A DNA stretch of 61,227 nucleotides from an uncultured Thermoplasmatales archaeon (GCA_964606745.1 CAZSHJ010000004.1:1-61227); one strand, 5' to 3'. Positions 25,140 to 59,884 are shown, counted from the stretch's first letter. Notes: generated from the sequence alone by a model not told the origin. Translations and numbers: made by a program.

Positions 25140-25148
25140 TATAAAAAA
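25140..25148 (-). promoter_or_regulatory. Probable TATA box of the rps19e operon
   Basis: TTTTTTATA on the minus strand 27-35 bp upstream of the rps19e ATG, just outside the transposon target site. Confidence 0.5.
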
Positions 25149-25371
25149 GTAATGGGATGAACAGTAGTTCCGAAAGTGCCTAATTCCGCCAATCATTTTT
25201 GTCTGTAAACAACAATATAATGTGATTTTAGTTGATTTTTTCATTAAAACCACCTTATTAAATAATCATTTCACTTCAAAAATTGTGTGATTAGTTTAAA
25301 ATTACTAAAAACCCACCTTCTCCAGATTGGAGAACTGGATTAAAAATCAATTTTTATCATTGAGTAACATG

Positions 25372-27015
25372 CTATCCCTCCCCTGTCTTGTAGAATATTG
25401 TAGCAAATAACTTTGATGTTATGACATGTTCGCTATATTTCTCTCCGTATAGCATAAGGCAAATCATAATATCAATTAAAATCCAGAGATTATACATAAG
25501 AACTGAAAACATGAAGTAAAAGAATCTAACGAAATAGTTCTTTGATGTGGTCTTTGAGCGGAATGAATACTTCTTAACCCTGTAGCTTGTCTCTATACCC
25601 CATCGCTTTCCGTATTGCCTGAAAACTTTATCTGCCAAGTCGACATCATTTTCATTCCAATCCTCGTTGCTTGCAAACGAATATTTTCTCCCATCATTTT
25701 CAACAATGATAACATTAATCGGTACATTTGCTATCATGAAATCTTTTATTACACACGGTGCAGATGTTATTTTTAGCAAGTGTATAATGGTTGAATATGC
25801 TGTGCAAGGCATTAAAAAATTCAGTTGGTTCTTGTTGAAGACCCTGATGCATTTTCCGCTGAAGAACCCTCTGTCGGCATATACCTTTCGTATCTTTATT
25901 CTCTGCTTTGCATATGCCAACAGTTTTGATAAAATATCCTCTTTTTTATCGAATGGTCCAACTGGCAATGCCAGCAAAGTAAATCTTCTACCAGCCTCAA
26001 CGATGTTTATGGTGGCAAATCTATAACCTCTATTTGTCCCTCTTTCTGGCTTTCTCCCCACCACCATAGGTGTATTTTTATCGCCATAAAACAGCCAATC
26101 AGTAAAATCAATGGCAACATCGAATTTTCTGTATTTATTGAATAGGTTTTCTTTCCTCGCCATATCCCAAAGTTTCTCAAATATTACGTTGAACATTCTC
26201 TGCAATTCTGCGATATCCCCATATTTTTCCAAATGATAAAGCAGCGTATCTGCATTTGGAACATATTTTCTCAACTCTTTCATGGTCGTTGATCCGTTCT
26301 CTGCAAAATCCTGGGTTAACGCCATATAGATTAGCAAGTCGATAAAATTATTTTTTGTGTAAATGCAATTCCCATTTTGTTTTATGTCGAGAAATGGTGA
26401 AATTTTCTTTTTAATAAGTTTGGCCAGCTCCTTTGTCTTCTTATCCCTTTTACGATAAATAGTACCTTTAGAAATCTCCTTTGTTGGTTTTTCTATGTTG
26501 ATTTCAATATCCAAATCAATACTGAACTTATCAGCCACTTCAACTATTTTCTTTGCTGTAAAATCAATAATCGCCCTTGTTTTGTCGTCAAGGATGTTAT
26601 TTATGAAATGACTAAATGTTCTTCTGTCAGGAATCTTGGTAAGTCCCAACTTTCTTGCTTCTATTTTATAATCCTCTAGATATGATACCAACTGGGTAAA
26701 AAATTTGAGTTGCTTTATTTTCATGAGAAGGATGGCTTGCAAAAGAGCATCATAAGAATATTTAATTTTTCGGTAATCTTGTTTGAAAATGTTCAGATTG
26801 AGACATTGCAGGATATCCAAAACCTTTATCTCATTTCCATCAACTAATCTGAAAACATCATATACTTCAGATTTGATTTTATTCTCTAGTCTTTTGTCTA
26901 AAATTGGCAGGGCGTTACGCTTATTAAGGCTTTTTTGTTCATCTCGCTTGGAGATGTGTATGTGCTTGGCGGCCATATTTATCTCCCAAAGAGATGCTGG
27001 CTGTATGGTCAGCAT
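25372..27015 (-). CDS. ISH3-family (IS4 superfamily) DDE transposase with extra N-terminal domain
   Basis: VAIDFTD, VYADRGF, YGKRWGIETSYR, PNADTLLYHL; N-terminal KYSYDALLQAIL...IPDRRTFSHF resembles DUF772/InsH-N; start may be ATG 26976. Confidence 0.85.
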   Translation of the reverse strand: MLTIQPASLWEINMAAKHIHISKRDEQKSLNKRNALPILDKRLENKIKSEVYDVFRLVDGNEIKVLDILQCLNLNIFKQDYRKIKYSYDALLQAILLMKIKQLKFFTQLVSYLEDYKIEARKLGLTKIPDRRTFSHFINNILDDKTRAIIDFTAKKIVEVADKFSIDLDIEINIEKPTKEISKGTIYRKRDKKTKELAKLIKKKISPFLDIKQNGNCIYTKNNFIDLLIYMALTQDFAENGSTTMKELRKYVPNADTLLYHLEKYGDIAELQRMFNVIFEKLWDMARKENLFNKYRKFDVAIDFTDWLFYGDKNTPMVVGRKPERGTNRGYRFATINIVEAGRRFTLLALPVGPFDKKEDILSKLLAYAKQRIKIRKVYADRGFFSGKCIRVFNKNQLNFLMPCTAYSTIIHLLKITSAPCVIKDFMIANVPINVIIVENDGRKYSFASNEDWNENDVDLADKVFRQYGKRWGIETSYRVKKYSFRSKTTSKNYFVRFFYFMFSVLMYNLWILIDIMICLMLYGEKYSEHVITSKLFATIFYKTGEG

Positions 27016-27016
27016 C

Positions 27017-27100
27017 TTTTGGTATCAATATTTTTTGATATCAAAATATAATACCGTAATTGTTTATATATTTTTTGGTATCAATATTACTTAGTATCAA
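27017..27100. promoter_or_regulatory. Phased operator/centromere-like repeat array between divergent genes
   Basis: RRTATCAA-type motif at 27021, 27037, 27077, 27093 (spacing 16/40/16); 16-bp direct repeat TTTTGGTATCAATATT at 27017 and 27073; palindrome TTTTGATATCAAAA at 27033-27046. Confidence 0.65.
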
Positions 27101-27144
27101 ATAGTAGAAAGTATTAAATAATCCAGTTGGTATTATAAAATCAC

Positions 27145-27471
27145 ATGGATGGCTTAGCCGAGAAAGTCCTGTCTCTTTCAATCCGCAGGAAGGTACTAGA
27201 GGAACTAATAAAAAAAGGCAAGGCGACTGCTTATAAGATAGCTAAAGAATTGGACATTCCTGATGCAGCAGTCGGCAAACATCTCGGGATTTTACATGAA
27301 GTAGGACTTGTACAATCACCTGAAATTGATGTTTCAAGCGGGAGACTCAAAAAGATATATATGCCATCCAATAGAGCTGCAAAAATTTTAAAGGAATTTT
27401 GGAAGAAAGAAATTATGGCAGCACCAAAAATTATCCAGAATATGTGTAAAGAGGTGAAAGAAAATGGTTGA
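27145..27471 (+). CDS. ArsR/PadR-like winged-helix DNA-binding protein
   Basis: RRKVLEEL, AYKIAKEL, VGKHLGILHEVGLV, GRLKKIY. Confidence 0.8.
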   Translation: MDGLAEKVLSLSIRRKVLEELIKKGKATAYKIAKELDIPDAAVGKHLGILHEVGLVQSPEIDVSSGRLKKIYMPSNRAAKILKEFWKKEIMAAPKIIQNMCKEVKENG

Positions 27472-28372
27472 AAAAATATTAGAGATAGATATAGATGAGT
27501 TGGGTGTAGATGAATGCAACATTAGGGGAAGTAAATGGGAATACGATGAGGAGCTTATAAAATCAATTGAAGAAAACGGTATCATCGAACCCCTATTGGT
27601 TCGACCAGCTGACCCTTCTACTGGTTTGAAGTATGGAATTATATGTGGGAGTAGACGTTATAACGCAGCAATTGAAGTGGGTTTAACAAAAGTACCATGT
27701 ATTGTAAAAAAGGTTGATGATGCAACGGCTATCGGTCTCTCTATTATGGAAAACAAACACAGGAAAGATATTCCTGGTTGGGTATACGCAGAAAAAATAA
27801 GACAGATGAACAAGTTAATAAATCATGGAACGCCAACTACAAAAAAAGTAAAAATGATTATATCAAAAACTGGCTTTGCCAAAAGAACGGTATACGATTA
27901 TCTTGCATTGACAGAGGCACCTGAAGAAATAATAGAACTGATGAAAGAACCAGAAGAACGTTCAGAGGAAGTGAATGAGTATATAAAAGCTACTGCACCC
28001 GGTGCAGCAACATTTATAAAGGAGAAACCACTTTCCAAAGATAAGGCAGTTAAAATAGCAACAAATCTTAAGGATTTTTCTGATGAAAAAAAATTTGAAG
28101 TTGCTCGATTTATCGCACCGCTTAAAGAGGAAATAGCGATGGATTTAATCGAAAAAGTAAGATTGCACCCTGAAAAACCTTTAGAAGAAATCAAGAAAAT
28201 GGTTGAGGGTATACCAAAAAGTGCTACTTGGGTGGTACAATTTGAGTGGGAGCCTAAATTGGTTAAAGCATTGGATAATGCGTGCATGGAGAAGAATATC
28301 GATAGAAAGAATCTCGTTACTAAATACGTAAAAGACGGATTGAAACGGGATAGATTTTTAGAGGAGGATTAG
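27464..28372 (+). CDS. ParB/Spo0J-family protein 1 (CTPase-HTH plus putative C-terminal RHH)
   Basis: EELIKSIEENGIIEPLLVRP, ICGSRRYNAA, MENKHRKDI; C-terminal VVQFEW...LVKALDNAC...LVTKYV has a ribbon-helix-helix pattern. Confidence 0.85.
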   Translation: MVEKILEIDIDELGVDECNIRGSKWEYDEELIKSIEENGIIEPLLVRPADPSTGLKYGIICGSRRYNAAIEVGLTKVPCIVKKVDDATAIGLSIMENKHRKDIPGWVYAEKIRQMNKLINHGTPTTKKVKMIISKTGFAKRTVYDYLALTEAPEEIIELMKEPEERSEEVNEYIKATAPGAATFIKEKPLSKDKAVKIATNLKDFSDEKKFEVARFIAPLKEEIAMDLIEKVRLHPEKPLEEIKKMVEGIPKSATWVVQFEWEPKLVKALDNACMEKNIDRKNLVTKYVKDGLKRDRFLEED

Positions 28373-29119
28373 ATGAATGAAGAATTAGCTAAAATAATAA
28401 AAGAGGACAGAGTTGCATCATTGACTACAACCAGTTTGAATGAAATTCTCAAATTATTTCCAATGCAAGGTACACCCTTTAGCTGTTGCATAACGAGCAT
28501 AAAAGCTCATGCATCATCCTCCGAAAAATCAAGGCCACTAATCGATGACCAAGAATATGGGATTGCAGGATATATCGACAAAAGCTCGGATTCCTTTAAT
28601 TTGGATTACAATATACTATTTAATGAGGAAAATGGTGTGCCAGAAAACCCATTAGATGCAGGAGGAATTAATAGAGTACTGACATCGATGAGAAAGCTCG
28701 GTTTTGAAGATGCTGCTGTGGATAATTTTACAGTAATAGTTAGGGATAAAGAGATTGGAAGATTGGCAGGTATTGATGAAGAATTATTTCACTTAACTAT
28801 GGTCTCTGAGCCTGTAGATGGCGATATGGATAGAGCGAAAGTAAAGGAACATGAAGTAAACGAGAGATTATTTAAGTATCATGGATTCAAACATCGTATT
28901 ATGCATTGTAAGAAGTTAATTGACCGTAGGCAGGAACTTACAAAAAAGCAGAGCGAGCAAAAACCATTAATTCATTGGAGGGGTTCAACTATAACTTCTT
29001 TGAGATCACCAATAAAAATTGCTCAAAAAGTAAAAGAACATTTCGGGGAATATGGACTCATAAAGAAATATGGACAAGGAAGTGAGGATACTTTGGTGCT
29101 ATTAGATGTGTCTAGATAA
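28373..29119 (+). CDS. Hypothetical protein between the two ParBs
   Basis: 248 aa, abuts ParB1 stop; no Walker A motif recognised. Confidence 0.75.
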   Translation: MNEELAKIIKEDRVASLTTTSLNEILKLFPMQGTPFSCCITSIKAHASSSEKSRPLIDDQEYGIAGYIDKSSDSFNLDYNILFNEENGVPENPLDAGGINRVLTSMRKLGFEDAAVDNFTVIVRDKEIGRLAGIDEELFHLTMVSEPVDGDMDRAKVKEHEVNERLFKYHGFKHRIMHCKKLIDRRQELTKKQSEQKPLIHWRGSTITSLRSPIKIAQKVKEHFGEYGLIKKYGQGSEDTLVLLDVSR

Positions 29120-29130
29120 ACCCATAAAAA

Positions 29131-30303
29131 ATGACTAGAGAGATAGTATCTATCAACATAGACAAATTGGATGTTGATAAATGCAATATAAGACAGGGCA
29201 TATGGGATGCTGATACAGAGTTAATAAACTCAATAAAGCAACAGGGAATAATCGAGCCATTGATTGTTAGACCTCTTTTAGGGGACAGCGGTGAGATAGC
29301 TTATGGTATAGTTTGTGGAAGTCGTAGGTATAATGCTGCAATAGAAGCAGATCTAAAGGAGGTTCCTTGTATAATTAAAGAATCAGACGACAGACAAGCC
29401 AGAGACTTATCAATGACTGAAAATCGACAGAGAAAAGATACCCCCGTATGGATGGATATTGAGTGGATCGGACTCAACTACAAAGATTATCTAAGTGAAG
29501 GTTTTATCCCTAATGAAGCAATTGATAAGTTAGAAAGTACGGGTTTTTCTCCTCAGACTAGGGAAAGATATGTAAGAATTTTTCAACTACCCATCGAAAT
29601 AAAGGGGTTGTTGAGGGAACTGTCGGACAGAACTATATATCAGAAAGAGTATATTATGCGAGTTACATCAAAAAATATTAACAATACACTTAGTTTAGGA
29701 AATGCCGATCATCTTGTCAGAATTATGGACAAATATGATGTTGAGAAGTTAATGGAAATAGCTATTTTTTTTATTAATATAAAAGAAGAAATTGCTGATA
29801 AAATAACAAATGAGTTAGCCTTGCACCCGGAAAAATCTGTAAATGAAATTTATAGAAAAATATCAAAAAAAGAGTATAGTGTAAATGAGAAAATTATTAA
29901 ATTTGATTGGGAAGTTTGGAAAGCAATAGAAGACATATGTATGGACAAGCAAATGCATGTTGACAAATTTCTAACAAATACTATAAGAAGGAGATTGGTC
30001 AGAGAGGGCTATCTAAAATCTGAAAAAGTTATCGTAGACGATATTACCGAACGCTCAGATAAGGAAAATAAAATTGATGTTAGAGCTACCAAAAGTAGAC
30101 TCCAAAAATTTGGATATAAATTTGTTAAACAAGAGGGAGATATCACTACTTTGAGATGCCCAACAAAAGATGGGTATGGATGTTTTTTCAGAGCGTATAA
30201 TAGTGGGAGAATATCTATAATCACAATAGAAAATCCTTCATCATATGAAAATCCGAGGAAAAGACTAATGGAAGAAAAGAACAGATTAAAAACAAAAAAA
30301 TGA
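29131..30303 (+). CDS. ParB/Spo0J-family protein 2 (paralog with extra C-terminal domain)
   Basis: ELINSIKQQGIIEPLIVRP, VCGSRRYNAA, TENRQRKDT; shares LHPEK and the RHH-like segment with ParB1, then about 90 extra aa. Confidence 0.85.
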   Translation: MTREIVSINIDKLDVDKCNIRQGIWDADTELINSIKQQGIIEPLIVRPLLGDSGEIAYGIVCGSRRYNAAIEADLKEVPCIIKESDDRQARDLSMTENRQRKDTPVWMDIEWIGLNYKDYLSEGFIPNEAIDKLESTGFSPQTRERYVRIFQLPIEIKGLLRELSDRTIYQKEYIMRVTSKNINNTLSLGNADHLVRIMDKYDVEKLMEIAIFFINIKEEIADKITNELALHPEKSVNEIYRKISKKEYSVNEKIIKFDWEVWKAIEDICMDKQMHVDKFLTNTIRRRLVREGYLKSEKVIVDDITERSDKENKIDVRATKSRLQKFGYKFVKQEGDITTLRCPTKDGYGCFFRAYNSGRISIITIENPSSYENPRKRLMEEKNRLKTKK

Positions 30304-30367
30304 GTTTAGATATATATTTACAAAAACATTAAAAAGGCAATAAAATTACAGTACAAAGAGTAAAAAT

Positions 30368-30601
30368 ATGATGGATGATAAAATGATAGAAATCAAAGAT
30401 GGTAAATTTTACATATTGGATAGCGAGAATGGTAAATGGATTTTTGTAACAGAAGACGAAGCAATAAAAAAATTGAAGGATACTGCAAAAAAGAGTGACC
30501 CAGAAAAGACGAGGGTTATTGAAGTTGATATCAGTGACGATGAATGGTCAATAAAACAAGTTCCATGGTCGAAAATAGCGATGAAACTAATCGGGGAGTG
30601 A
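30368..30601 (+). CDS. Small hypothetical protein
   Basis: 77 aa, KFYILD...WSIKQVPWSKIA; co-oriented with the module. Confidence 0.7.
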   Translation: MMDDKMIEIKDGKFYILDSENGKWIFVTEDEAIKKLKDTAKKSDPEKTRVIEVDISDDEWSIKQVPWSKIAMKLIGE

Positions 30602-30606
30602 TAAAA

Positions 30607-30840
30607 ATGGAAAGAGAACAAATAAACAAATTGAGTGATTATCTAAAACAAATGGATGAGATACTTGAAAAAATTTTGCACGCACAATTTAGGATACAAA
30701 ATAAAAAATGGCTTCAAGCAATAACAAAAATTGAAGATGGATTTCAACAAACAGTAGGTTATATCGCAGATGTTAAAGGTATTGAAATAAAATCTAAAAT
30801 TATGACAAATGAAGATATTAACAAAATATTGGAGGGATAA
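30607..30840 (+). CDS. Small helical hypothetical protein
   Basis: ATG 30607 after GGGGAGTGA; 77 aa amphipathic helices. Confidence 0.6.
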   Translation: MEREQINKLSDYLKQMDEILEKILHAQFRIQNKKWLQAITKIEDGFQQTVGYIADVKGIEIKSKIMTNEDINKILEG

Positions 30841-31139
30841 AAACGGTAGATACAGATTAGGCTTCATCATATAAAAGCCTAATTATTTTTGGTAATTGTT
30901 TACCTTTCTGAAGCAAAGATTCGAAAAATAGAGAAATACGCTCCCCCCCCCCATATTCAAACTAATAGAATGGATTTTAGGACTTTCTTGAGGAAATCAG
31001 CAATAAAAAGCCTCCATTCAAAAATTCTGTGTCCAGAATTATTATATTTGGAAGTTATGCATAGGCCATAGCATATATTTTTAGGAATATCACGTATGGG
31101 TTAAGTTTATATACAACCGTTCTGCATATTTTTTATTTA

Positions 31140-31721
31140 ATGACAGATTTTCTTATAACAGAAGTCATTCAAAATATTAGAAAAGAAGTGAAGGAAGGCA
31201 AAACTAAATTGCAAATATCAAAGGAGTTAGGAATAAATTATGGTATGGTGAGAAAATACGCTAAGGATACCAAACGAAGGAGGGTCTACACTGCACAGGA
31301 TATTCAGCATATAAGGGACTTGGTTAAAAAGACCGATAACAAAGCCGAAGTGGCCAGACAAATGAATATATCCCATGATACTGTGCTAAAGTATACATTG
31401 GATATCAAGGTCCGAAACAAGACCTTCGGAGAGAAAACTTGGGATATATTGAGAGAGATTATGGAAAAAGGGTATGTCTACCTCAACAACGGAAAGACAA
31501 CCAAGGTTTACATGCTGAGGAAACATTTTCCATCTATACAGATGGCACGGGTAAAAGGGAGGTCTATTGCATTTCTTCCAGACAGGAAGGAGGAGGCTAT
31601 GAGAGCGATGCTGCAGAAATTCGATAAGAAGGTTTGGAGCTATCAGGAGCTAAAAAGTGTGACGAAGTTGTTTGATAGCGATTTAAATAGGAAAGAGAAA
31701 AAGAAATTCATTGAGAAATAA
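31140..31721 (+). CDS. Tandem helix-turn-helix protein
   Basis: Two HTH-like repeats (TKLQISKELGINYGMVRKY; NKAEVARQMNISHDTVLKY) followed by a wHTH-like region. Confidence 0.7.
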   Translation: MTDFLITEVIQNIRKEVKEGKTKLQISKELGINYGMVRKYAKDTKRRRVYTAQDIQHIRDLVKKTDNKAEVARQMNISHDTVLKYTLDIKVRNKTFGEKTWDILREIMEKGYVYLNNGKTTKVYMLRKHFPSIQMARVKGRSIAFLPDRKEEAMRAMLQKFDKKVWSYQELKSVTKLFDSDLNRKEKKKFIEK

Positions 31722-31814
31722 AATGAATTACATAAGATGACTTGAAGCATATAAAGAGGATGCAATGAAGGAGAGATTGAAATCCCTCGGCTTAATTCAG
31801 CTAAAAGCTTAATA

Positions 31815-32015
31815 TTAGTTTAGGAGGATTAGACCCACTAGTTGTAACAAGATTCCAGCCGATATTAATATGCCGGCAATCCAATAAAAAACCCCCCTGA
31901 ATGTGTTTAATCTTCTTATTGTAGGAAACTTATCCTTAACGCAACTCCACAACAGAATTACTGCAGACCCAATAGAAAAAACTGTTACACCTACAGGAAA
32001 TATGAGGTCATTCAT
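31815..32015 (-). CDS. Small two-TM membrane protein
   Basis: 66 aa with two hydrophobic segments; overlaps the upstream gene by 8 nt. Confidence 0.55.
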   Translation of the reverse strand: MNDLIFPVGVTVFSIGSAVILLWSCVKDKFPTIRRLNTFRGVFYWIAGILISAGILLQLVGLILLN

Positions 32016-32868
32016 TATCTTCTCTCCCTAAAACATCACGATACATAATCGTATCTATAATAGTATTTTTAATGGTGTTATAAAATTTTTCTTTTTCTAT
32101 ATTATCAATCCATATCTCTCTTAGCTGATATTCATTAAGTAGAATTTGTGCTTTTTCATTTATCCCAACTTCCAAGAGCTGGGATAACCTAAGCTGATAA
32201 GTTTTTAGTAAGGCCTTTGCATTATTGATACTCTCATACCCCGCCAGTGTATGAGGGTTTAGCCAGAAAGTTCCTTGGGCCACCCAATCTATAAGGGCGC
32301 CCATTATAGCATCATCTTCCTTCTTATCGCTATTTGAATACTCTTGCATAGGCCATATCTCCCGCATAATAGAAATGTTTTGGCAATCAGGAAATTTGGA
32401 CCCCATGAGAGTTTCTAATTTATTTAGCAATCCAAAGTTCCACAATGGCTTGTACATCATTGTATAGAAAAGATTCTTTTCCTTGTTAGTGAGATTTGGG
32501 GGTACATCCACGCTCCACTTCAACACACCTGAAGCTTTAAGCTCGATTTTGCCGTACCTAATAATATCATACAACTGGGCAACCCTGTTGGTATATGGTG
32601 TGGTTACCCCTCCATAATCACTAGTTGTATCCCATATAAAAGAAACCCGCCCTTTTGAGTAATGTTTTTTCTCTTTTGTACTCAAAACTTTATAAACTGC
32701 ATTTTCGTTTTTCCCGTTTTCTACAAAGCTATTCCATATATCGGTTAATTCCTGCGGGGACAACGGATGTGGTAGTACATATATATGTGATAAGTTTTCT
32801 TTTTTCATAAATTTCTCTGTATTAAACACTGATTTTAGGAGTGTATTTTTCCATCCATATGGGGGCAT
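32008..32868 (-). CDS. Hypothetical protein
   Basis: 286-aa ORF coupled to its neighbours; no motif recognised. Confidence 0.65.
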   Translation of the reverse strand: MPPYGWKNTLLKSVFNTEKFMKKENLSHIYVLPHPLSPQELTDIWNSFVENGKNENAVYKVLSTKEKKHYSKGRVSFIWDTTSDYGGVTTPYTNRVAQLYDIIRYGKIELKASGVLKWSVDVPPNLTNKEKNLFYTMMYKPLWNFGLLNKLETLMGSKFPDCQNISIMREIWPMQEYSNSDKKEDDAIMGALIDWVAQGTFWLNPHTLAGYESINNAKALLKTYQLRLSQLLEVGINEKAQILLNEYQLREIWIDNIEKEKFYNTIKNTIIDTIMYRDVLGREDNE

Positions 32869-33289
32869 ATTTATTTAATAAGTCTCGAGATGTGATTTGT
32901 AAATCAGATAAATCTCTAGCGACCTTTTTAATTGCATCCATTTTTGGTGAATCTAACTGCCGTTTAGTTATCTCGGCCAAGAGCATACCTTTATCGGTTA
33001 ATTCAATCCAATAGTGGGCTGTACGCATACCCTCCTCTTTCACCCTATACCGTTTTATTAATCCTACAAATTGTAGGGAAAGCATATCCTTTAATAATTT
33101 TCTATCGTTCACTCCCTCATAGCATAATTCACTAAACTCATATCCAACAATTTTTTCTGATGCTTGATTGTCTAGAGAATGCTCTGAGAGGGCGTATATG
33201 CCCAGCTTAAGCCGTTTCCACTGGTAGACTCTATTATCCCTAGCCTCAGACAAGATAACACAAATCATACCCCAATCCATTTCAGCCAT
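32822..33289 (-). CDS. Winged-helix protein, Panacea/SocA (DUF4065)- or YwgA-like
   Basis: YQWKRLKLGIY...YEF..LCYEG...LLKDMLSLQFVGLI...ELTDKG pattern. Confidence 0.5.
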   Translation of the reverse strand: MAEMDWGMICVILSEARDNRVYQWKRLKLGIYALSEHSLDNQASEKIVGYEFSELCYEGVNDRKLLKDMLSLQFVGLIKRYRVKEEGMRTAHYWIELTDKGMLLAEITKRQLDSPKMDAIKKVARDLSDLQITSRDLLNKYAPIWMEKYTPKISV

Positions 33290-33766
33290 TTTATCTACCC
33301 AATTCTAATCCAATCATTTCACGGCATATATCCTTCTATTCTTTTTAAAAGTTTCGTTATTACTGGTGAACTATAGTTAAATAAACATTGACTGATATAT
33401 CTATTATACTTTCTCATATGTCTACTTAGAAGCATCAAAACACGTAGATGACTGAAGTAAAGTTCTTTATGATACATATGTGTCGTTATATTGAATGGAA
33501 TGGGACTACAAAAACCTATCGGCACGGACTTCTTTAGCTATGAAATGTGCTGTGCCGCATAAATGGAATTTTCTTGGTTATTATTAAATTAAATGCTACT
33601 AACTAATATAGATATATATCATATATTCTTTCAATATTCGTTGGAAAAGGAGTTATTCAACACAGCAATGAAATGTAAATGATAAAAACGCCGGTCACCA
33701 CGTGAATATATTTGTGTGTACCTACAAAAAACAACAACATTTTTAATCACAAGCAAGTTTAGTATT

Positions 33767-34384
33767 ATGGCAAATGGTCATTCGCTCTTGCATAATCAAA
33801 TTATAAAGCAGTTATTTAGTAAGGAAATACGAGAGACAGTGGATTGCTGTCATATATTGTATAGACAAGGGTACGTATACGGTGGGCAGGGAAATGTTAG
33901 CCACAGGATTGAAGACGATAAATTTTTAATCACGCCATCAGGATATTCCCTGAGAGATATCACCCCTGACAATCTATGTTTAGTAAACTTTGATGGAAAT
34001 AATATTAGCGGGAATGCATTAACACCTTCCTCAGAATATTTAATGCATCTTGGGATTTACAAACAAAGAGGAGATGTCAATGCAATTATACACACTCACC
34101 CTTTAGAAGTAGTTTTATATTTTAACCATGAAGATAAACATTTATCTCTGCCTAATGGGGAGTATATAAAAAAAGATACTAAAAAAATATCCTATATTCC
34201 TCCCGGCTCAGATGAACTAGCAAAAGAAGTGGCTAACCAAAGTACAAAAACGGATTCCATAATACTCTGCAAACACGGTCTAGTTACGATGGGGGAAAAT
34301 ATAAGAAAAGCGGCTGACCTGACCGGAATCATTGTTTATTACAGTAAATATGAAGTAATGAATGAATTATGGAATAAGTTGTAG
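33767..34384 (+). CDS. Class II aldolase/adducin-family protein
   Basis: GNVSHR, ITPSG, PSSEYLMH, IIHTHP, CKHGLV. Confidence 0.88.
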   Translation: MANGHSLLHNQIIKQLFSKEIRETVDCCHILYRQGYVYGGQGNVSHRIEDDKFLITPSGYSLRDITPDNLCLVNFDGNNISGNALTPSSEYLMHLGIYKQRGDVNAIIHTHPLEVVLYFNHEDKHLSLPNGEYIKKDTKKISYIPPGSDELAKEVANQSTKTDSIILCKHGLVTMGENIRKAADLTGIIVYYSKYEVMNELWNKL

Positions 34385-34394
34385 GTTATTTTTT

Positions 34395-34424
34395 CATTCC
34401 TTGGCATTTTTTGACATTCGGAAC
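34395..34424. mobile_element. Internal degenerate copy of the transposon right end
   Basis: CATTCCTTGGCATTTTTTGACATTCGGAAC versus CATTCCTTGGCGTTTTTTAGCATTCGGAAC at 38186-38215; terminal TACTG is missing. Confidence 0.8.
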
Positions 34425-34469
34425 ATTAGGAATAACTGGTGATGCACTTAACTTTATAGATATATTAGC

Positions 34470-35753
34470 CTATGATTCTTTACTGCCTAGGGCAATGACG
34501 CCATCCCAGTATGAACCGAACAGGATGCGGTTGTCCTCGGGATTGTCGTTTTTGGTGAGGATGGTGAATTGGCCTCCCGCATAGTTCCAACCGTTCATGG
34601 GAAACTGCCACAGAATGGAGTTGTTCGCGGTGAGGTCGAGTGCGGTGATATATTGTCGGGGGAAGAGGCTTGCGGCGGAGATGAGCATAACGGGGTGGGA
34701 GAAATCGCAGATTGTCATGCAGGAGAGGGGTTTGTAGCCCAGTAAGACTCCGCTGGGGACAAGTTTATCAATCCTGATTTCCTCGATTTGCCGGATGGTG
34801 TGGTCTTCCTTGACGAAATGGATGAGTCGACTACCCCGGTAGTCCTCGTACCAAAACCCGAGGCGTGGGTCCTTGGAGAAGGAGAACATGGTGATGTATG
34901 GATATGGCAGAGAAATGGTGGTATAGTGTTCGCCCAAGTCGGTTACGGCATAGATGTGTGGTTTTTTTGAAAACCCCGACAGGTAGCCGTCAAAGTAAAC
35001 GGTGTTGTCGATTAACAGGGGACTGGCCTGACTATGACCGGTAAAAGGAAAATACCATGCCTCGGCTAACGTCTCGTCAGCCTGCCGATTCACGTCGACC
35101 GCGTAGAGTCGCCCCTCGAGGTTTTTCCTTAATTTCCCTTTAGCAGGCCTGAACTCGGTGGAGATATAGATCCGGTGGCCATGCGCACATGCCGAATTAA
35201 TGGTGGAAAAATACCCTGCCTCATGTTCCCCGAGTTCACGGCTGCCTAAAAATGTGCCATCTTGTGCATCAAAAGCATAAACGGGGCCAGTGGTGGGAAG
35301 GACAATGGTCTTATTTTCGACAAGGGTGGGGCTAAATGGAATGATGATGGCCCCTTGTTTGTTGGGTATATCGGTTTGCCATACAATCTCAGTTTGATTG
35401 TTGTTAACATCAACCTCGACCATGAGGATGGTTTTGTTGTCACAGGCGATGACCCTATTGTCGATGCTCACCATGGGTGTCGAGGAGACAGCAATCTGGT
35501 TCAGAAGGGACTTTGAGTTCCACAGGCGATGACCATCATAATCATAAATAACCAGAGTATCCTTCCTGCCATGAAAGGTACATGCCGCAATGGTACCATT
35601 GCCAGCAATCCCATTGCCCTTCGCCCCCTTCTTTTCACCTTGTAAATCGTTTCTGTGCCATTTTATCTCAACGTCGCGTCTGGGCACCGGAAGATCGATG
35701 CTGTCGCTCATATGAGGATCACTGTGAACCATCGCACCTCCCCACTTCGGCAA
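34470..35753 (-). CDS. PQQ/BamB-like beta-propeller protein
   Basis: Repeated SSTP/SPTL/ASP blades, LYAVD, W-terminated blades; likely start ATG 35732; visibly GC-richer than neighbours. Confidence 0.7.
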   Translation of the reverse strand: MPKWGGAMVHSDPHMSDSIDLPVPRRDVEIKWHRNDLQGEKKGAKGNGIAGNGTIAACTFHGRKDTLVIYDYDGHRLWNSKSLLNQIAVSSTPMVSIDNRVIACDNKTILMVEVDVNNNQTEIVWQTDIPNKQGAIIIPFSPTLVENKTIVLPTTGPVYAFDAQDGTFLGSRELGEHEAGYFSTINSACAHGHRIYISTEFRPAKGKLRKNLEGRLYAVDVNRQADETLAEAWYFPFTGHSQASPLLIDNTVYFDGYLSGFSKKPHIYAVTDLGEHYTTISLPYPYITMFSFSKDPRLGFWYEDYRGSRLIHFVKEDHTIRQIEEIRIDKLVPSGVLLGYKPLSCMTICDFSHPVMLISAASLFPRQYITALDLTANNSILWQFPMNGWNYAGGQFTILTKNDNPEDNRILFGSYWDGVIALGSKES

Positions 35754-35803
35754 AACAAAAGATATTTTTTCACCCCCTATTTGACATTATTTGCATTTTG
35801 TCC

Positions 35804-36829
35804 TCACCTTTTTGGGGTGTTTTTATTCTCCCTCAACATCTTCAGAATGTTAAGTTCCCGCCGCCATATTACCCGTACCGCAAGGGCACACAGTGCAACA
35901 GTCAACACAATAGTGGCAATCAGACTTGCTATGCCTCCGATGGAATTTGATAAGCCAAGCTTTACCCTTGTCCCCCATGGTAGCTCCACGGAGCGTAGCG
36001 TCGTGGTATCGACTTTAACTTTTTGATCATTTATAAATGCAAAAAGTATTGCTTGGATGTAAAATGATGCTTTATTGTTTGCTTTTGGTATCTCACAGTC
36101 TATGGTGAAATTTTTCTCTTTGCCTGGTTTCAGTACTTCGTTATTTTTGGTTTTGCCGATTTCTTCACTTAGTGTCCCCATGCCTTCTATGCCAGGTATA
36201 CCAAGCGAGGACGGCTTTACCATATCTATTCTAATGCATATAGTCACTGAAATATCACCATAATTTTTAACTGTGACCTCTGTCTTGATGGTTTTTTCTT
36301 TGATGGCAGAAATTTTAAAATCAGTTATGCGGATTTTCATATCCTCAATAATTTCTTCTAAGGAAAAATCTGATATTTCTATCCCCTGAGGGGTTGATTT
36401 ATCAGAGACAAATAATCTGGGACCAATTTTAATGAACACGGTAGCAACGATACCATAACTCTTATACCATTCAACATCTGATTCACCTACTGTACATGAG
36501 ATAGTTAATTCCGTTTCTCCTTTTCTAATTCTTTCATACATACTACTGCTTCCAATTTCTTTTCTTACTAAGCCCGTTAGACTATCAACTAAATCAATTC
36601 GGACATATACATTTTTTAAAAACCAGCCATCATTTTTCAAGGTAACTGTCACATTGAAACTTTCATCTAAATTTATAGAAACCTCGGGATTCTCTGGTTT
36701 TACATCAAGGATTTTGACTTTTCCTTTGATAAAATCAAAGTTTGCACCGTCTGCAATCCCCATACTAGAAAACAGTACACACCCAACTACAAGCACGATT
36801 AATACCTCACGAACCATGAAAGTAATCAT
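35804..36829 (-). CDS. Membrane-anchored exported protein with two Ig-like repeats
   Basis: Signal peptide; two beta-rich repeats (VTVTLKN / TEVTVKN); C-terminal TM with basic tail. Confidence 0.7.
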   Translation of the reverse strand: MITFMVREVLIVLVVGCVLFSSMGIADGANFDFIKGKVKILDVKPENPEVSINLDESFNVTVTLKNDGWFLKNVYVRIDLVDSLTGLVRKEIGSSSMYERIRKGETELTISCTVGESDVEWYKSYGIVATVFIKIGPRLFVSDKSTPQGIEISDFSLEEIIEDMKIRITDFKISAIKEKTIKTEVTVKNYGDISVTICIRIDMVKPSSLGIPGIEGMGTLSEEIGKTKNNEVLKPGKEKNFTIDCEIPKANNKASFYIQAILFAFINDQKVKVDTTTLRSVELPWGTRVKLGLSNSIGGIASLIATIVLTVALCALAVRVIWRRELNILKMLRENKNTPKR

Positions 36830-36845
36830 TTTTAATTATTTATTG

Positions 36846-38003
36846 TTATCTGCCTTGGGGGGGGAATGTGTAGTGCCGAATGCGAAACGACGAACGACAT
36901 CGACAGGGCTGCCCCCGGGTCCAAGTAACAGTAAGATTTTGCGTATTGATAATCCAGGCAAAAGCAGAAATATTCGGATGTCTGCAGATGTCACCTTCGT
37001 CAGGAATCCGCTTCCAGTAGCCGCCCTTGTGATCTCGTATAAGGGATTGACAGGTTTCCTCAGACAAATCCCCATCATTACTATGGCAGGTTAACAACTC
37101 CTCCGCTCTATCGTATCTGCGAAATGAGGATGGGTATTCCTCTCTGTTTGCCACCGACCCAGTTTTTTCGGGGTCCAGCCAAACGTGATGATTCGTATGC
37201 CACAGTATCCCTCTTTGACCGCCATCCCTCACAGCAATATAACTATGTGTTTGCTCAATCATAAGAATGCCCCCCTCTATGTCGCACCAAGCAGATGTCT
37301 CAAAATCCCAATGGTAGGGCCACGTTTTTTTCGTAGAAGATGACCTTGTTATTTCCCTCCATAGCGTGCTCACCTCCTCAACGGTTGCACAGTGTATTAT
37401 GGTATAAAGATCCAGCAAATAGGTGGGTATCCCCTCATCAGACGAATCAATATGTTCCGGGTTCTTGGCAAGTACGGTGGCAGCACCAGCAAACCCCAGC
37501 CCTTTTTCATTGAGCAGAGGAACCTCAAAAATCACCGGGATACCAAGATACATATAATCATATGGGGGATTATGGTCTTGGCGGAACTCATGCAGCCGTG
37601 GTTTTCGCGTGAAGAAAAACCGGAAAATTGGCTTCAGCAAATCAAACATGTTCAGATCAAAATTTTGCGTCATATACGTGTGATTGTCCCCAGTTGCAGG
37701 TGCCGTCATTGCCGTTACCGTACAGGCTTTATCCATATACCTACCAAGCACTATCTGCATGGCCATCAGTTTCTGAAGCCCAATATGAGCGCCAATAGAA
37801 ACATTGAAAAGCTCTTGGAAAAAACTAGGGAGATTTTTTTTAAGCAACGCAATCTGTTTATCCACCTCTTCCATCACTTTCTTTTTCCCATATTTACGAA
37901 TGAAAATCCAAAGAATGAGATACAAAAAATGGTAGAACATCATATTTCTTCGGCCTAATAGCTTTGCATAACCTTCGCCAAAAAAATATCTATTTTTCAT
38001 CAT
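36846..38003 (-). CDS. C45 family (Ntn-hydrolase) peptidase/acyltransferase
   Basis: Catalytic ACT, QNFD, LNEKGL, HTNH. Confidence 0.8.
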   Translation of the reverse strand: MMKNRYFFGEGYAKLLGRRNMMFYHFLYLILWIFIRKYGKKKVMEEVDKQIALLKKNLPSFFQELFNVSIGAHIGLQKLMAMQIVLGRYMDKACTVTAMTAPATGDNHTYMTQNFDLNMFDLLKPIFRFFFTRKPRLHEFRQDHNPPYDYMYLGIPVIFEVPLLNEKGLGFAGAATVLAKNPEHIDSSDEGIPTYLLDLYTIIHCATVEEVSTLWREITRSSSTKKTWPYHWDFETSAWCDIEGGILMIEQTHSYIAVRDGGQRGILWHTNHHVWLDPEKTGSVANREEYPSSFRRYDRAEELLTCHSNDGDLSEETCQSLIRDHKGGYWKRIPDEGDICRHPNISAFAWIINTQNLTVTWTRGQPCRCRSSFRIRHYTFPPQGR

Positions 38004-38229
38004 TTATCAAAATATATTTATCATATAAAAAACCAATGAAAATAAATTTGGTACCTCCAATTTCATGAATGTTTTTGCCCATTTATAGCGATAAAAAGGT
38101 AGAGCAGGTATTCCTTGGCATTTTTGTTTGCTAAAACACTCTCTGTTCAAAAATTCTAAACTCAATTCATATCTGTTGGGATGGCCATTCCTTGGCGTTT
38201 TTTAGCATTCGGAACTACTGATGAATGAA

Positions 38230-38280
38230 CAGTAGTTCCGAAAGTAGCTAATTTCGCCAATCATTTTTGCCTGTAAAATA
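38230..38280. mobile_element. Terminal sequence of a second sister element
   Basis: CAGTAGTTCCGAAAGTAGCTAATTTCGCCAATCATTTTTGCCTGTAAA closely matches 25162-25210 and is preceded by ATGAA. Confidence 0.8.
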
Positions 38281-38397
38281 CTAAACCAATTTTTGTTTAT
38301 AAAACTCATACAGCAGATAATCATTGACAAAAACACATTGTATATGGTGGGTTTAAAAGAAAAAAGAAAGAGGATTAGATGTTGAACTTGGTCTCTC

Positions 38398-39738: not shown

Positions 39739-39882
39739 TCAAATTTGTGTTCTGTTAAAAAATTCAACAATAAACAAGACGGCTGCCGCAAGATTGTTTG
39801 ATGCAAATTTTAGCAGGGAGGAAAAACATAAGTTAGTTAAAGAAAAATAGAGAAGAAAAGGATAGTGGGAAAAAGAGAAAAA

Positions 39883-40089
39883 TTAACCGTTTTGATCGTC
39901 CTCGAAAATGAACAGTTCATCTATTGTTGTTTTTAATGCTTTTGCAACATCGTAAGCCAGTTTTAGAGAGGGATTGTATTTTCCTTTTTCGAGAAATAGA
40001 ATAGTTTCTCTGCGTACACCTACTCTTTTTGCAAGATCCTCTTGAGTTAGATCGTAACGGGCTCTGAGTTCCTTAATTCTTGTTTTCAT
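39883..40089 (-). CDS. XRE-family HTH transcriptional regulator
   Basis: [34 protein letters not shown]. Confidence 0.9.
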
Positions 40090-40091
40090 GC

Positions 40092-40496: not shown

Positions 40497-40500
40497 TTTT

Positions 40501-42197: not shown

Positions 42198-42488
42198 CTT
42201 TTCCCCTTTTTATGTGGTAAATATCGGGCTTTTATAAGTTCTCTTTAAATCAGTATTTAATAAAGGTCATAAAAAATTTAATTAGCAATGACTTGATAAC
42301 AGATGTTCTTCGGCACTTTTAATGTGTCAAAACTGCCTTCGTTTAAAAATTTTAATTCTATTTTTTTTCTATCTGTAATACAGTATATCCCTCGGCGAAA
42401 AATGGCAATCGAATAACTGAATGAGGGTAAATTTTACTGGTTCACAGTGTATCGTCACTGTGTTATATGCTGCCAGACATACGAGATA

Positions 42489-59882: not shown

Positions 59883-59884
59883 GC

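What the first reader, a model, noticed from the sequence alone, without database searches (positions are those of the whole stretch)
25157..38225. 13-kb ISH3-like unit transposon with intact TIRs, 5-bp TSD and about 11 kb of cargo
Seen: perfect 13-bp IRs (CAGTAGTTCCGAA at 25162; its reverse complement ends at 38220), ATGAA duplicated on both flanks, one DDE transposase reading toward the left end, and no IS end upstream of the transposase until 34.4/38.2 kb. Known: ISH3-family elements are normally about 1.2-1.5 kb, encode only a transposase and make 4-5 bp duplications. Inference: this is a single-transposase cargo transposon about ten times the usual size, carrying a partition-like operon and enzymes. 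I know of no described equivalent. The intact TSD suggests it last moved as one unit.
Basis: partly seen in the sequence, partly recalled or inferred. Interest (0 to 1): 0.92.

Follow-up and report, generated by a model that had tools for sequence, protein, structure and literature searches.

The report
Promoter-targeting archaeal cargo transposon
The 13-kb stretch is a real mobile element of a widespread, apparently undescribed group of archaeal (Thermoplasmatota) transposons that carry variable cargo genes and insert, always in the same orientation, about 14 bases upstream of the TATA box of strong host promoters.

Summary
A perfect 13-bp inverted repeat lies at 25162 and 38208-38220, ATGAA abuts both ends, and one transposase reads toward the left end.

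There is also a tip-damaged inner right end at 34395-34438.

The transposase is a distant ISH3-family DDE enzyme. It has the Y-2-R-3-E-3-R motif, CAGT tips, 5-bp duplications and a Tn5-like fold, plus about 220 extra N-terminal residues.

Thirteen relatives in other Thermoplasmatota MAGs have the same ends with 13 different matching 5-bp duplications. They span 2.9-10.4 kb and carry unrelated cargo. A multi-HTH gene is a second conserved gene, usually next to the right end.

The left end sits a fixed 14 nt from a host BRE/TATA promoter at 32 of 41 independent sites (P about 1e-40). These are often ribosomal-protein, eIF-5A or thermosome promoters.

Re-use of the same 5-bp target stacks elements head to tail. 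That explains the solo end at 38230. It also means the matching ATGAA does not prove the 13 kb moved as one unit: it may be a 9.3-kb element fused in place to the 3.8-kb remnant of an earlier occupant.

No prior description was found. Verdict: partly supported; interest high.

The parts
25140..25156 (-). Host promoter of the S19e ribosomal-protein operon. TATA box at 25140-25147 (TTTTTATA on the minus strand), which is positions 15-22 outward from the transposon tip. The BRE-like A-rich positions lie between the TATA box and the TSD. The S19e ATG at 25113 is 49 nt from the tip.
   Evidence: The same flank, without any element, is present in relative L097.
25157..25161 (.). Left copy of the 5-bp target duplication (ATGAA)
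25162..25209 (+). Left end (IRL): 13-bp terminal IR CAGTAGTTCCGAA plus a left-type subterminal sequence (..AGTGCCTAATTCCGCCAATCA..)
   Evidence: IRL-type ends lie about 190 nt after the transposase stop in nearly all of about 70 related loci.
25372..27015 (-). DDE transposase, 547 aa, distant ISH3 family. D303/D381/E475 and Y468-R471-E475-R479 are conserved. It has about 220 extra N-terminal residues with a weak DUF772 match and a Tn5-like fold.
27014..27101 (.). Divergent control region between the transposase and the wHTH gene. It holds two 32-nt direct repeats, each containing a TTGGTATCAA..TTGATATCAAA palindrome; probable operator sites (inferred).
   Evidence: (D11)
27145..27471 (+). ArsR/TrmB-type winged-helix regulator (108 aa)
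   Evidence: wHTH genes sit in the same position in L006-L010.
27464..30303 (+). Cargo: ParB-N-domain protein (302 aa), unknown protein (248 aa), second ParB-N-domain protein (390 aa). No ParA partner.
31140..31721 (+). Second conserved gene of the family ('F1'): a 193-aa multi-HTH DNA-binding protein with two tri-helical HTH domains plus a winged helix. Usually encoded right next to the right end; here it is 2.7 kb from the inner right end.
32008..34384 (.). Cargo: two unknown proteins (286 aa and 155 aa, minus strand) and a class II aldolase (222 aa, plus strand)
34395..34438 (-). Inner right-type end (IRR*). The subterminal TCCGAATGTCAAAAAATGCCAAGGAATG is intact. The tip is damaged (CAGTTATTCCTAATG plus a 9-nt duplication). 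Its outside flank is GTGAT, which does not match ATGAA.
34439..38185 (-). 3.8-kb extension of host-like GC: PQQ-like beta-propeller (34470-35753), Ig-like membrane protein (35804-36829) and AAT/Ntn-hydrolase-like protein (36846-38003)
   Evidence: Homologues of the 385-aa protein lie in ordinary chromosomal contexts without transposon ends.
38186..38220 (-). Outer right end (IRR): perfect 13-bp IR plus right-type subterminal ..GAATGCTAAAAAACGCCAAGGAATG. A second GCCAAGGAAT copy lies at 38111-38120.
   Evidence: It matches the IRR consensus of 13 relatives.
38221..38225 (.). Right copy of ATGAA
38230..38277 (+). Solo left-type end (IRL'), 92% identical to 25162-25209, with no transposase behind it. 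Read as the remnant of an earlier occupant of the same promoter site.
   Evidence: The same arrangement occurs in L008, L024, L055 and L026.

Best explanation
Window 25162-38220 is a copy of a cargo-carrying DDE transposon from a large, distinct subgroup of the archaeal ISH3 family found in Thermoplasmatota.

Anatomy (shown):
- 13-bp terminal inverted repeats with asymmetric subterminal sequences.
- A Tn5-like transposase gene about 190 nt inside the left end, reading outward.
- In 12 of 14 bounded elements, a multi-HTH DNA-binding gene inside the right-end side, directly adjacent to the right end in most of them.
- Variable cargo in between, and a 5-bp target duplication.

Target choice (shown comparatively): the element inserts in one orientation with its left tip 14 nt upstream of the TATA box, just upstream of the BRE, of a host promoter. 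The transposase and the host gene point the same way and the promoter stays intact. Strong housekeeping promoters are favoured.

Consequence (shown): new copies re-use the same 5-bp target and push older copies outward. This gives head-to-tail stacks that decay to solo ends or fuse.

This copy (part shown, part inferred): it is a 9.3-kb element (25162-34438, GC 0.34) joined to a 3.8-kb host-like segment that ends in an intact right end. It sits at the S19e operon promoter beside the solo end of a previous occupant.

Inferred steps:
- Chemistry is Tn5-like cut-and-paste.
- Target recognition reads either the BRE/TATA sequence or the TBP-TFB complex bound to it, through the transposase N-terminal extension or the HTH protein.
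- It is undecided whether the 13 kb last moved as one piece or was assembled in place.
For: Ends and TSD in the window.

Family membership:
- NCBIfam ISH3 is the best hit (E 2e-45) over the whole profile.
- The Y-2-R-3-E-3-R motif and the DDE residues are invariant in 23 homologues.
- The CRGT tip and 5-bp DR match the family definition in PMC2266710.
- The AF2 model's best PDB match is Tn5 transposase.

Same ends, other cargo, other TSDs: 13 relatives of 2,936-10,386 bp each have a perfectly matching but different 5-bp duplication. Their cargo includes an SF1 helicase-nuclease, a DEAD helicase, radical SAM enzymes, a Dcm methylase, KaiC and a PAS kinase.

Second core gene: present in 12 of 14 bounded elements, 70-230 nt from the right tip in 12 loci.

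Promoter targeting:
- TTTWTATA lies at positions 15-22, with AA at 11-12 and a PPE-like ATT at 33-35.
- 39 of 51 flanks, and 32 of 41 independent sites, carry it, against a 1.6% background (P 2.5e-48 and 2e-40).
- There is no signal on the right-end side.
- A forward ORF starts 20-115 nt from the tip in 32 of 51 flanks.
- Downstream genes include ribosomal proteins S19e, L44e, S8e, S3Ae, L10e, S15 and L7Ae, eIF-5A, thermosome and Hsp20.

Stacking: an IRR-5 bp-IRL junction occurs in L008, L024, L055 and L026. In L024 and L055 the outer copy shares at least 300 nt, including the transposase 3' end.

Two-part structure of the window copy.

Site occupancy: the S19e site is empty in L097 and occupied in L004, L005, L013 and L095.
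Against: - Everything rests on sequence comparison of MAGs and metagenome contigs. No transposition, excision product or second identical copy of this element was observed.
- The transposase scores below NCBIfam's ISH3 cut-off (155 against 225 bits).
- Selection against gene-disrupting insertions would enrich promoter-proximal survivors, although it cannot give a 1-nt-precise spacing and a fixed orientation.
- About 9 of 41 sites lack a recognisable TATA box at the expected place.
- The transposase and the host S19e protein diverge about equally between the window and L004 (83% against 84% aa). The element may therefore be old and vertically inherited at this site rather than recently mobile.
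- The right junction was not read directly in an independent assembly.
Confidence: 0.78

Rival explanations
1. In-situ stack rather than a unit. Two (or three) separate elements inserted successively at the S19e promoter, each re-using the ATGAA target. A later deletion removed the left end and transposase of the middle element. The 13 kb therefore never transposed as one piece, and its true mobile unit was 25162-34438.
For: - Target re-use and tandem stacks are documented in L008, L024, L055 and L026.
- The inner right-type end at 34395-34438 has a fully conserved subterminal part.
- GC shifts from 0.34 to 0.40-0.46 exactly there.
- The solo IRL' shows that this site was hit before.
- This scenario needs one step fewer than fusion followed by transposition.
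Against: - The flank outside the inner end is GTGAT, not ATGAA, so the deletion would have had to start exactly at the tip.
- The inner tip is damaged, while the outer IR pair is a perfect 13/13 match with a perfect TSD. That is what is expected if the outer pair was the last one used.
- The 3.8-kb segment carries host-type genes and no recognisable remnant of a transposase or F1 gene.
Confidence: 0.45
2. Integrated plasmid or provirus. The 13 kb is an episome (suggested by the ParB-like genes) that uses the DDE enzyme as its integrase. The IRs are its attachment ends, and it replicates extrachromosomally between integrations.
For: - Two ParB-N-domain genes and several small DNA-binding proteins are present.
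- GC is lower than in the host.
- The abutted IRR-spacer-IRL junction resembles a circle junction.
Against: - No replication initiator, ParA, capsid, terminase or conjugation gene was detected.
- Cargo is unrelated from element to element and only the transposase and the HTH protein are shared. There is therefore no conserved episomal backbone.
- No relative was found on viral contigs.
- The junction is explained by stacking, because in L024 and L055 the outer partner is a fuller second copy.
Confidence: 0.07
3. An ordinary small ISH3-type IS that lost its right end, plus an unrelated stray right end 11 kb away. On this reading the IR/TSD match is coincidental and the 'cargo' is host DNA.
For: - ISH3 elements are normally 1.2-1.5 kb (PMC2266710).
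- Part of the interior (34.4-38.2 kb) looks host-like.
Against: - No relative has a right end directly upstream of the transposase.
- 13 relatives repeat the long architecture with matching TSDs, each about a 1/1024 chance.
- The 26-34 kb interior has foreign GC.
- The F1 gene is shared among the elements.
Confidence: 0.03

Closest known systems
ISH3 family insertion sequences (ISH3/ISH27/ISH51, ISC1359, ISC1439, ISFac10; defined in De Palmenaer et al. 2008, PMC2266710)
   Same: - Archaeal host.
- DDE transposase with the Y-(2)-R-(3)-E-(3)-R signature.
- Tips beginning CRGT (here CAGT).
- 5-bp target duplication.
- The NCBIfam ISH3 model is by far the best hit.
   Different: - The score is below the family cut-off.
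- The transposase is 520-547 aa, with an extra N-terminal region of about 220 aa.
- Elements are 2.9 to over 13 kb with cargo, against 1.2-1.5 kb with one ORF.
- There is a second conserved gene (multi-HTH).
- The two ends are asymmetric.
- Insertion is position- and orientation-specific next to promoters.
Bacterial unit (non-composite) transposons and 'transporter IS' with passenger genes (Tn3, Tn402/Tn5053, Tn7 families; IS231-type elements up to 5.4 kb)
   Same: One set of transposition genes, terminal IRs, a short TSD, and variable passenger genes between the end modules.
   Different: - A different transposase family.
- No resolvase, TnsC/TniB-type ATPase or res site.
- The host is archaeal. 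Passenger-carrying DNA transposons were stated not to have been detected in archaea as of 2019 (PMC6563490).
Tn7 (attTn7/TnsD) and IS1202-group elements that sit 5 bp from the XerC site of dif/pdif (PMC10132070)
   Same: Insertion is orientation-specific and at a fixed distance from a conserved host DNA-protein site. This 'safe-haven' placement leaves the neighbouring gene functional, and repeated use of the same site occurs.
   Different: - The target here is a class of sites (BRE/TATA promoters, many per genome), not one locus.
- No TnsABCD homologues are present.
- The selector is unknown.
Yeast Ty3 (integrase tethered to TFIIIB = TBP-Brf1 at Pol III start sites), and Ty1, Tf1 and Dictyostelium TRE elements
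   Same: Integration occurs at a fixed short distance from the site where TBP and a TFIIB-family factor sit. This keeps insertions out of genes and biases them toward highly transcribed genes.
   Different: - Those are eukaryotic retroelements with retroviral-type integrases; this is a DNA transposon.
- Tethering here is only a hypothesis.
- Insertion is upstream of the BRE, not at the transcription start.
Cbp1 (CRISPR repeat-binding protein of Sulfolobales, PDB 2lvs) and the N-terminal HTH modules of IstA, Pax and CENP-B-type transposases
   Same: The conserved 193-aa protein has tandem tri-helical HTH domains. Cbp1 is its best match by sequence (NCBIfam E 2e-5) and by fold (Foldseek prob 0.99, E 0.03).
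   Different: - The similarity is weak.
- The protein has an additional winged-helix domain.
- It is not next to CRISPR arrays.
- Its function is untested.

Membership tests
ISH3 family (IS4-related 'emerging family') | DDE transposase with the Y-(2)-R-(3)-E-(3)-(R) motif | tested here: met
   Y468, R471, E475 and R479 are invariant in 23 homologues, as are D303 and D381. The motif definition is from PMC2266710.
ISH3 family (IS4-related 'emerging family') | Scores above the curated NCBIfam NF033541 cut-off | tested here: not met
   155.1 bits against a cut-off of 225. It is still the best hit, at E 2.2e-45, and covers profile positions 3-297 of 298.
ISH3 family (IS4-related 'emerging family') | Terminal bases CRGT; direct repeats of 4-5 bp | tested here: met
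   The tips read CAGT and the TSD is 5 bp, in the window and in 13 relatives.
ISH3 family (IS4-related 'emerging family') | Size 1225-1500 bp, with the transposase as the only gene | tested here: not met
   13,059 bp here and 2,936-10,386 bp in relatives. No short form was found among 79 loci.
Unit (non-composite) cargo transposon | A single transposase, IRs at both extremities, passenger genes inside and a flanking TSD | tested here: met
   Whether this particular 13 kb moved as one unit is unresolved.
Composite (compound) transposon | Two complete IS copies bracketing the cargo | tested here: not met
   There is only one transposase gene, and the right end has no IS behind it.
Tn7-like site-specific transposon | TnsA/TnsB heteromeric transposase, TnsC AAA+ regulator, and a TnsD/TniQ selector | tested here: not met
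   Pfam and NCBIfam show none. There is only a chance-level HTH match to TnsD (E 0.0036) for the 193-aa protein.
Integrated plasmid / provirus | Replication initiator, partition ATPase, capsid or packaging genes; a tyrosine or serine integrase | tested here: not met
   None was found by Pfam, NCBIfam, PHROGs or PADLOC. There are no relatives in IMG/VR.
Promoter-complex-tethered integration (Ty3-like mode) | Physical interaction of the recombinase, or an accessory protein, with TBP or a TFIIB-family factor | not testable with these tools
   Only the footprint-like geometry is shown: the tip lies 14 nt upstream of the TATA box, on the BRE side, in a fixed orientation.

The most novel reading that the evidence does not exclude
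These elements are the first prokaryotic DNA transposons that find their targets by docking onto the archaeal pre-initiation complex (TBP-TFB on BRE/TATA). Docking would occur through the transposase's N-terminal extension or the conserved multi-HTH protein. This would be a functional analogue of Ty3/TFIIIB targeting. Repeated docking at the same promoter stacks elements, and deletions within stacks are the route by which they capture new cargo, including host genes. This would make them a major vehicle of gene flow in Thermoplasmatota.
Probability: 0.3. Interest if true: 0.92.

Novelty: new variant of a known kind. Interest (0 to 1): 0.84.

Why it matters
- **A missing class in archaea.** Cargo-carrying DDE transposons were listed as missing from the archaeal mobilome (PMC6563490). 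Here is a family of them, apparently common in an abundant sediment and marine phylum. They carry defence-like, signalling and metabolic genes.
- **A new kind of target specificity.** The precise, oriented placement upstream of BRE/TATA is, as far as I could find, unreported for any prokaryotic transposon. It parallels eukaryotic retroelements that read the transcription machinery.
- **Testable mechanism.** It offers a simple system for asking how a transpososome senses a promoter or a TBP-TFB complex.
- **Possible tool.** It could become a promoter-proximal, gene-sparing insertion tool for archaea.
- **Practical use in annotation.** The ends mark real promoters in uncultured archaea. Stacks of these elements can explain assembly breaks and genomic islands next to ribosomal-protein operons.

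Tried and rejected
- **Right end near 27050.** None at up to 3 mismatches or by PWM.
- **Other ends in the window.** The 2-mismatch hit at 1300-1312 lies inside an ORF and has no subterminal similarity, so it is chance.
- **Exact-protein look-ups to read the right junction in the Logan contig.** The 385-aa and 337-aa queries are 'not on record'. The look-up with the 326-aa UbiA protein returned only short contigs. The junction is supported only by the contig-length argument.
- **Predicted empty site GGGATGAA|TGAA.** Not found. The scan with the conserved S19e promoter flank returned 3 contigs: one occupied (L095), L005 again, and one empty site in a more distant relative (L097). Nucleotide identities do not settle vertical inheritance against repeated hits.
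- **Transposase against PDB by sequence, alone and as a profile.** No hits. Only the fold search found Tn5.
- **Viral contigs.** No relatives.
- **Rfam and tRNA scans of the window.** Nothing, so there is no tRNA-type att site and no known ncRNA in the ends.
- **PADLOC and PHROGs on the window cargo.** Only generic ParB-N and HTH hits.
- **Homologues of the 385-aa cargo protein as a route to an intact 'second element'.** They sit in ordinary contexts without ends.
- **Literature.** Eight full-text searches found no description of cargo-bearing or promoter-targeting ISH3-like elements. ISfinder itself could not be queried.

Full report
**1. Observation**

The 13-mer CAGTAGTTCCGAA occurs exactly at 25162 (+) and 38208-38220 (-), and ATGAA directly abuts both tips. 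A 547-aa ORF (25372-27015, minus strand) with a DDE_Tnp_1 domain reads toward the left end. Nothing resembling an end lies between the transposase start and 34.4 kb.

Two things were not in the finding:
- A third exact copy of the 13-mer lies at 38230 (+), 9 bp beyond the right end. It begins a 48-nt stretch that is 92% identical to the left end and is also preceded by ATGAA. A papain-like peptidase gene, not a transposase, lies behind it.
A position weight matrix (PWM) built from 13 foreign right ends finds only two hits in the whole window, at 38186-38220 and at 34395-34429. The inner hit scores even better than the outer one in its subterminal part. Its tip, however, is damaged: CAGTTATTCCTAATG followed by a 9-nt duplicate TTCCGAATG.

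**2. Setting**

The left flank is the archaeal ribosomal-protein operon S19e, PDCD5-like, L39e, L31e, eIF-6. The element sits immediately upstream of that operon's promoter.

GC content is about 0.45 in the flanks, 0.33-0.35 over 26-34 kb, 0.40-0.46 over 34-38 kb, and 0.34-0.39 over 38-42 kb.

Independent assemblies support the sequence. JGI contig L092 reproduces the left junction base for base. A 31,158-nt Logan contig is 100% identical to 25301-37015. From its length it should end at about 56458, inside repeat D4, so it is inferred to run through the right junction.

**3. The transposase**

- NCBIfam's ISH3 model is the only strong hit (E 2e-45). It covers residues 223-514 and the whole profile, but scores below the curated cut-off (155 against 225 bits).
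- The protein search returned 686 hits at E ≤ 1e-5. The 120 best listed are about 510-550 aa, and those that carry a name are from Thermoplasmatota, Methanobacteriota or Euryarchaeota archaea.
- In an alignment of 23 homologues, D303, D381 and E475 are invariant, as is the ISH3 signature Y468-x2-R471-x3-E475-x3-R479 (signature from PMC2266710).
- The AlphaFold model (pLDDT 71) has Tn5 transposase as its top PDB match (E 1e-5, prob 1.0).
- The CAGT tips and the 5-bp duplication also fit the ISH3 definition of CRGT tips and 4-5 bp repeats.
- What does not fit is the extra N-terminal region of about 220 residues and the size of the elements.

**4. Relatives show the architecture is real and general**

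I fetched contigs for close homologues and 79 loci from GTDB species representatives.

- In nearly all loci a left-type end (CAGTAGTTCCGAAAGT...) lies 185-210 nt after the transposase stop.
- In 13 loci a right-type end (CAGTAsyTCCGAATGyAAAAA..rCCAArGAA) lies upstream with a perfectly matching 5-bp duplication, different in each case. These elements measure 2,936, 3,954, 4,059, 6,349, 6,443, 6,622, 6,796, 7,030, 7,766, 8,585, 9,409, 9,515 and 10,386 bp.
- Of 26 loci with a full 10 kb of upstream sequence, 11 have the right end and TSD within range and 14 have none. Many elements are therefore probably longer than 10 kb.
- No element has a right end directly upstream of an intact transposase gene, so a plain IS form was not seen.
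- Cargo is unrelated between elements. It includes an SF1 helicase with a DUF559 nuclease, a DEAD-box helicase, radical-SAM enzymes, a CDC48-N protein with a metallo-beta-lactamase, a Dcm methylase, HerA/NurA-like proteins, KaiC, a PAS histidine kinase and PQQ/PKD proteins.

**5. A second conserved gene**

The 193-aa protein encoded at 31140-31721 has homologues in 24 loci. In 12 of them the gene lies 70-230 nt inside the right end. It is present in 12 of 14 bounded elements.

Its model (pLDDT 81) shows two tri-helical HTH domains and a winged helix. The best matches are the CRISPR-repeat-binding protein Cbp1 and the N-terminal HTH modules of the IstA transposase; all are weak.

The family thus has a left module (transposase) and a right module (HTH protein) with cargo between them. 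The role of the HTH protein is not known. End binding, regulation and target selection are all possible.

**6. Target specificity (new)**

I aligned the DNA outside the left tip from 51 dereplicated loci. It shows an archaeal promoter in register:
- the 5-bp duplication at positions 1-5;
- A-rich positions 11-12, which look like a BRE;
- TTTWTATA at positions 15-22;
- a PPE-like ATT at positions 33-35.

A match to TTTATATA with at most 2 mismatches starts at position 15 or 16 in 39 of 51 flanks, against a background of 1.6% per position (P 2.5e-48). After stricter clustering it does so at 32 of 41 independent sites (P 2e-40). The right-end flanks show no such signal.

A forward ORF starts 20-115 nt from the tip in 32 of 51 flanks. 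The downstream genes are rich in highly expressed functions:
- ribosomal proteins S19e (window, L004, L005, L013, L095), L44e, S8e, S3Ae, L10e, S15 and L7Ae;
- eIF-5A, thermosome and Hsp20;
- secreted peptidases, PurH and AglB.

In the window the TATA box is at 25140-25147 and the S19e ATG is 49 nt from the tip.

The promoter belongs to the host. Relative L097 has the same promoter and operon with no element. The transposase and the host gene always point the same way.

Purifying selection could favour intergenic survivors. It cannot produce 1-nt register and strict polarity. The elements must therefore read either the BRE/TATA sequence or the TBP-TFB complex on it. Which of the two applies is not shown.

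**7. Stacking explains the third end**

In L008, L024 and L055 a left-type end abuts the right end of the element, separated by exactly the 5-bp duplication. In L026 the left end is followed, after 5 bp, by the right end of another element.

In L024 and L055 the outer partner shares at least 300 nt with the inner element, including the 3' end of a transposase gene, so it is a second copy. In L008 and in the window only 36-48 nt remain.

The simple reading is this. The target is defined by the promoter, so a newcomer uses the same 5 bp again and pushes the resident copy outward. Residents then decay. The solo end at 38230 is the vestige of an earlier occupant of the S19e promoter. The extra TGAA may reflect a 4-nt offset of the older insertion or slippage in ATGA-ATGA-A; this is inferred.

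The S19e promoter is occupied in the window and in four other contigs representing three further lineages: L095, L004/L005 (100% identical over the operon) and L013. Their 5-bp flanks differ (TTCAT, TCATT, GCGTT, GCATT, TGTCT). The site is empty in L097, which is the closest relative of L004/L005. This fits repeated targeting or loss. Vertical persistence cannot be excluded, because the transposase and S19e diverge about equally between the window and L004 (83% and 84% aa).

**8. What this particular 13 kb is**

It is two-part:
- 25162-34438 (9,277 bp, GC about 0.34) holds the transposase, a wHTH regulator, two ParB-N proteins, the HTH core gene, unknown proteins and an aldolase. It ends in the damaged inner right end.
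- 34439-38220 (3,782 bp, host-like GC) holds a PQQ-like propeller, an Ig-like membrane protein and an Ntn-hydrolase-like protein. Homologues of the last one elsewhere sit in ordinary chromosomal contexts without transposon ends. This part ends in the intact right end.

Two histories fit the data:
- (A) A fusion formed, for example by deletion within a stack. The inner end became inactive, and the whole unit transposed using the outer end. That event made the ATGAA duplication.
- (B) The outer segment is what remains of an element that inserted here first. The 9.3-kb element later inserted at the same ATGAA, and a deletion removed the junction. The 13 kb never moved as a unit.

History B needs one step fewer, and target re-use is documented. 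History A is favoured by the perfect outer IR pair against the damaged inner tip, by the non-matching flank (GTGAT) outside the inner end, and by the absence of any element remnant in the 3.8 kb. I put them at roughly even odds.

Either way, stacking followed by deletion is a plausible route by which these transposons acquire cargo, including host genes. This is inferred.

**9. Mechanism: best estimate**

*Shown:* a Tn5-like ISH3-type DDE enzyme; asymmetric ends with subterminal GCCAA(G)GAA-type repeats (two copies about 77 nt apart at the right end); a 5-bp staggered target cut; and oriented insertion 14 nt upstream of the TATA box.

*Inferred:*
- Cut-and-paste chemistry through hairpins, as for Tn5 and IS10. 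The YREK-related motif supports this.
- Regulation by the wHTH protein at the repeated palindromes between it and the transposase gene (27014-27101).
- Target capture through the N-terminal extension of the transposase or the multi-HTH protein.
- Benefit to the element: a safe haven next to genes that cannot be lost. Cost to the host: minimal, because the core promoter is preserved.

**10. Comparison and novelty**

By catalytic motif, tips and TSD this is an ISH3-family derivative. By HMM cut-off, size, gene content and behaviour it is a distinct subgroup (see the membership table).

It works like a bacterial unit transposon. In target choice it resembles Tn7 or the dif-targeting IS1202 group, and conceptually Ty3.

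I found no description of it:
- A 2026 survey of archaeal IS treats ISH3 only as an IS (PMC13343696).
- The IS4/ISH3 classification lists 1.2-1.5 kb elements (PMC2266710).
- Krupovic et al. 2019 state that passenger-carrying DNA transposons had not been detected in archaea (PMC6563490).
- Eight searches gave nothing on promoter-targeted archaeal transposons.

ISfinder and paywalled literature could not be checked. I therefore rate it a new variant of a known kind, not a categorically new one.

**11. Verdict**

The class is right. 'Moved as one unit' is unproven. 'Partition-like operon' is weak.
- The finding opens onto a family-level result that a specialist would find surprising and that is directly testable.

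Noticed in passing
window 27014-27101: Two 32-nt direct repeats lie between the divergent transposase and ArsR-type genes. Each contains a TTGGTATCAA...TTGATATCAAA palindrome. They look like operator sites for the adjacent wHTH regulator.
   Followed up: no
window 25262-25345: Three independent assemblies break inside the spacer between the left end and the transposase stop. L001 starts at 25301, L002 and L003 end at 25346, and L092 ends at 25261. This stretch is not repeated in the window. A 7-bp-stem hairpin (TTCTCCA ATC TGGAGAA) lies nearby. The cause is unknown; strain variation or low coverage are possibilities.
   Followed up: partly
window 61028-61227: Five head-to-tail copies of a 40-41-nt unit (..AACTAATAGAGAGGGTATATACTTACAG..) run off the end of the window. 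There are no spacers, so this is not CRISPR-like.
   Followed up: no
window 54391-54498, 56249-56496, 58083-58217, 59819-59990: Several intergenic segments of 50-90 nt are duplicated at 78-91% identity. They lie upstream or downstream of unrelated genes: a collagen-repeat protein, a nucleoside-deoxyribosyltransferase-like protein and an NAD(P)HX repair enzyme. They may be shared regulatory or terminator modules, or small mobile repeats.
   Followed up: no
window 23686-23793: Three tandem 36-nt repeats lie inside the 208-aa L31e-like ORF. They give the ribosomal protein a repetitive acidic extension.
   Followed up: no
window 38278-42200: Low-GC (0.34-0.39) DNA lies behind the solo end. It holds a papain-like peptidase with a Big_7 domain, an HTH_3 regulator, small membrane proteins and a UbiA prenyltransferase. 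It may be the decayed cargo of the earlier occupant, but no further right-type end was found.
   Followed up: partly
L040 and L060, flank after the left end (about 45-75 nt from the tip): Here the targeted promoter is followed not by an ORF but by a shared GC-rich sequence (GCTGGGCGTAGGTGGACGGTTGACGG), probably a structured RNA gene. RNA-gene promoters therefore seem to be targeted too.
   Followed up: no
L039, L061, L086: flanks after the left end: These target sites are atypical and lack a TATA box at positions 15-22. Instead they have repeated GTGTAAWA / GTAGTGG motifs. This could be a different target class or a non-canonical promoter.
   Followed up: no
L079 (CP070798.1) 9252-11312; L086: These are deletion derivatives. 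L079 is a 2,061-bp element with an intact right end and the F1 gene, but a transposase truncated to residues 177-547 and a non-matching TSD (CAAGG/CAACT). L086 has a transposase truncated to residues 282-547, yet a perfect TSD.
   Followed up: partly
L058, L070, L072, L073, L074, L077 (record titles): A few loci come from bins labelled Ignavibacteriaceae, Pacearchaeota, Methanosarcinales, Aenigmatarchaeota, Nanohalarchaeota or 'bacterium'. This means either mis-binned Thermoplasmatota contigs or real spread of the family to DPANN and other lineages.
   Followed up: no
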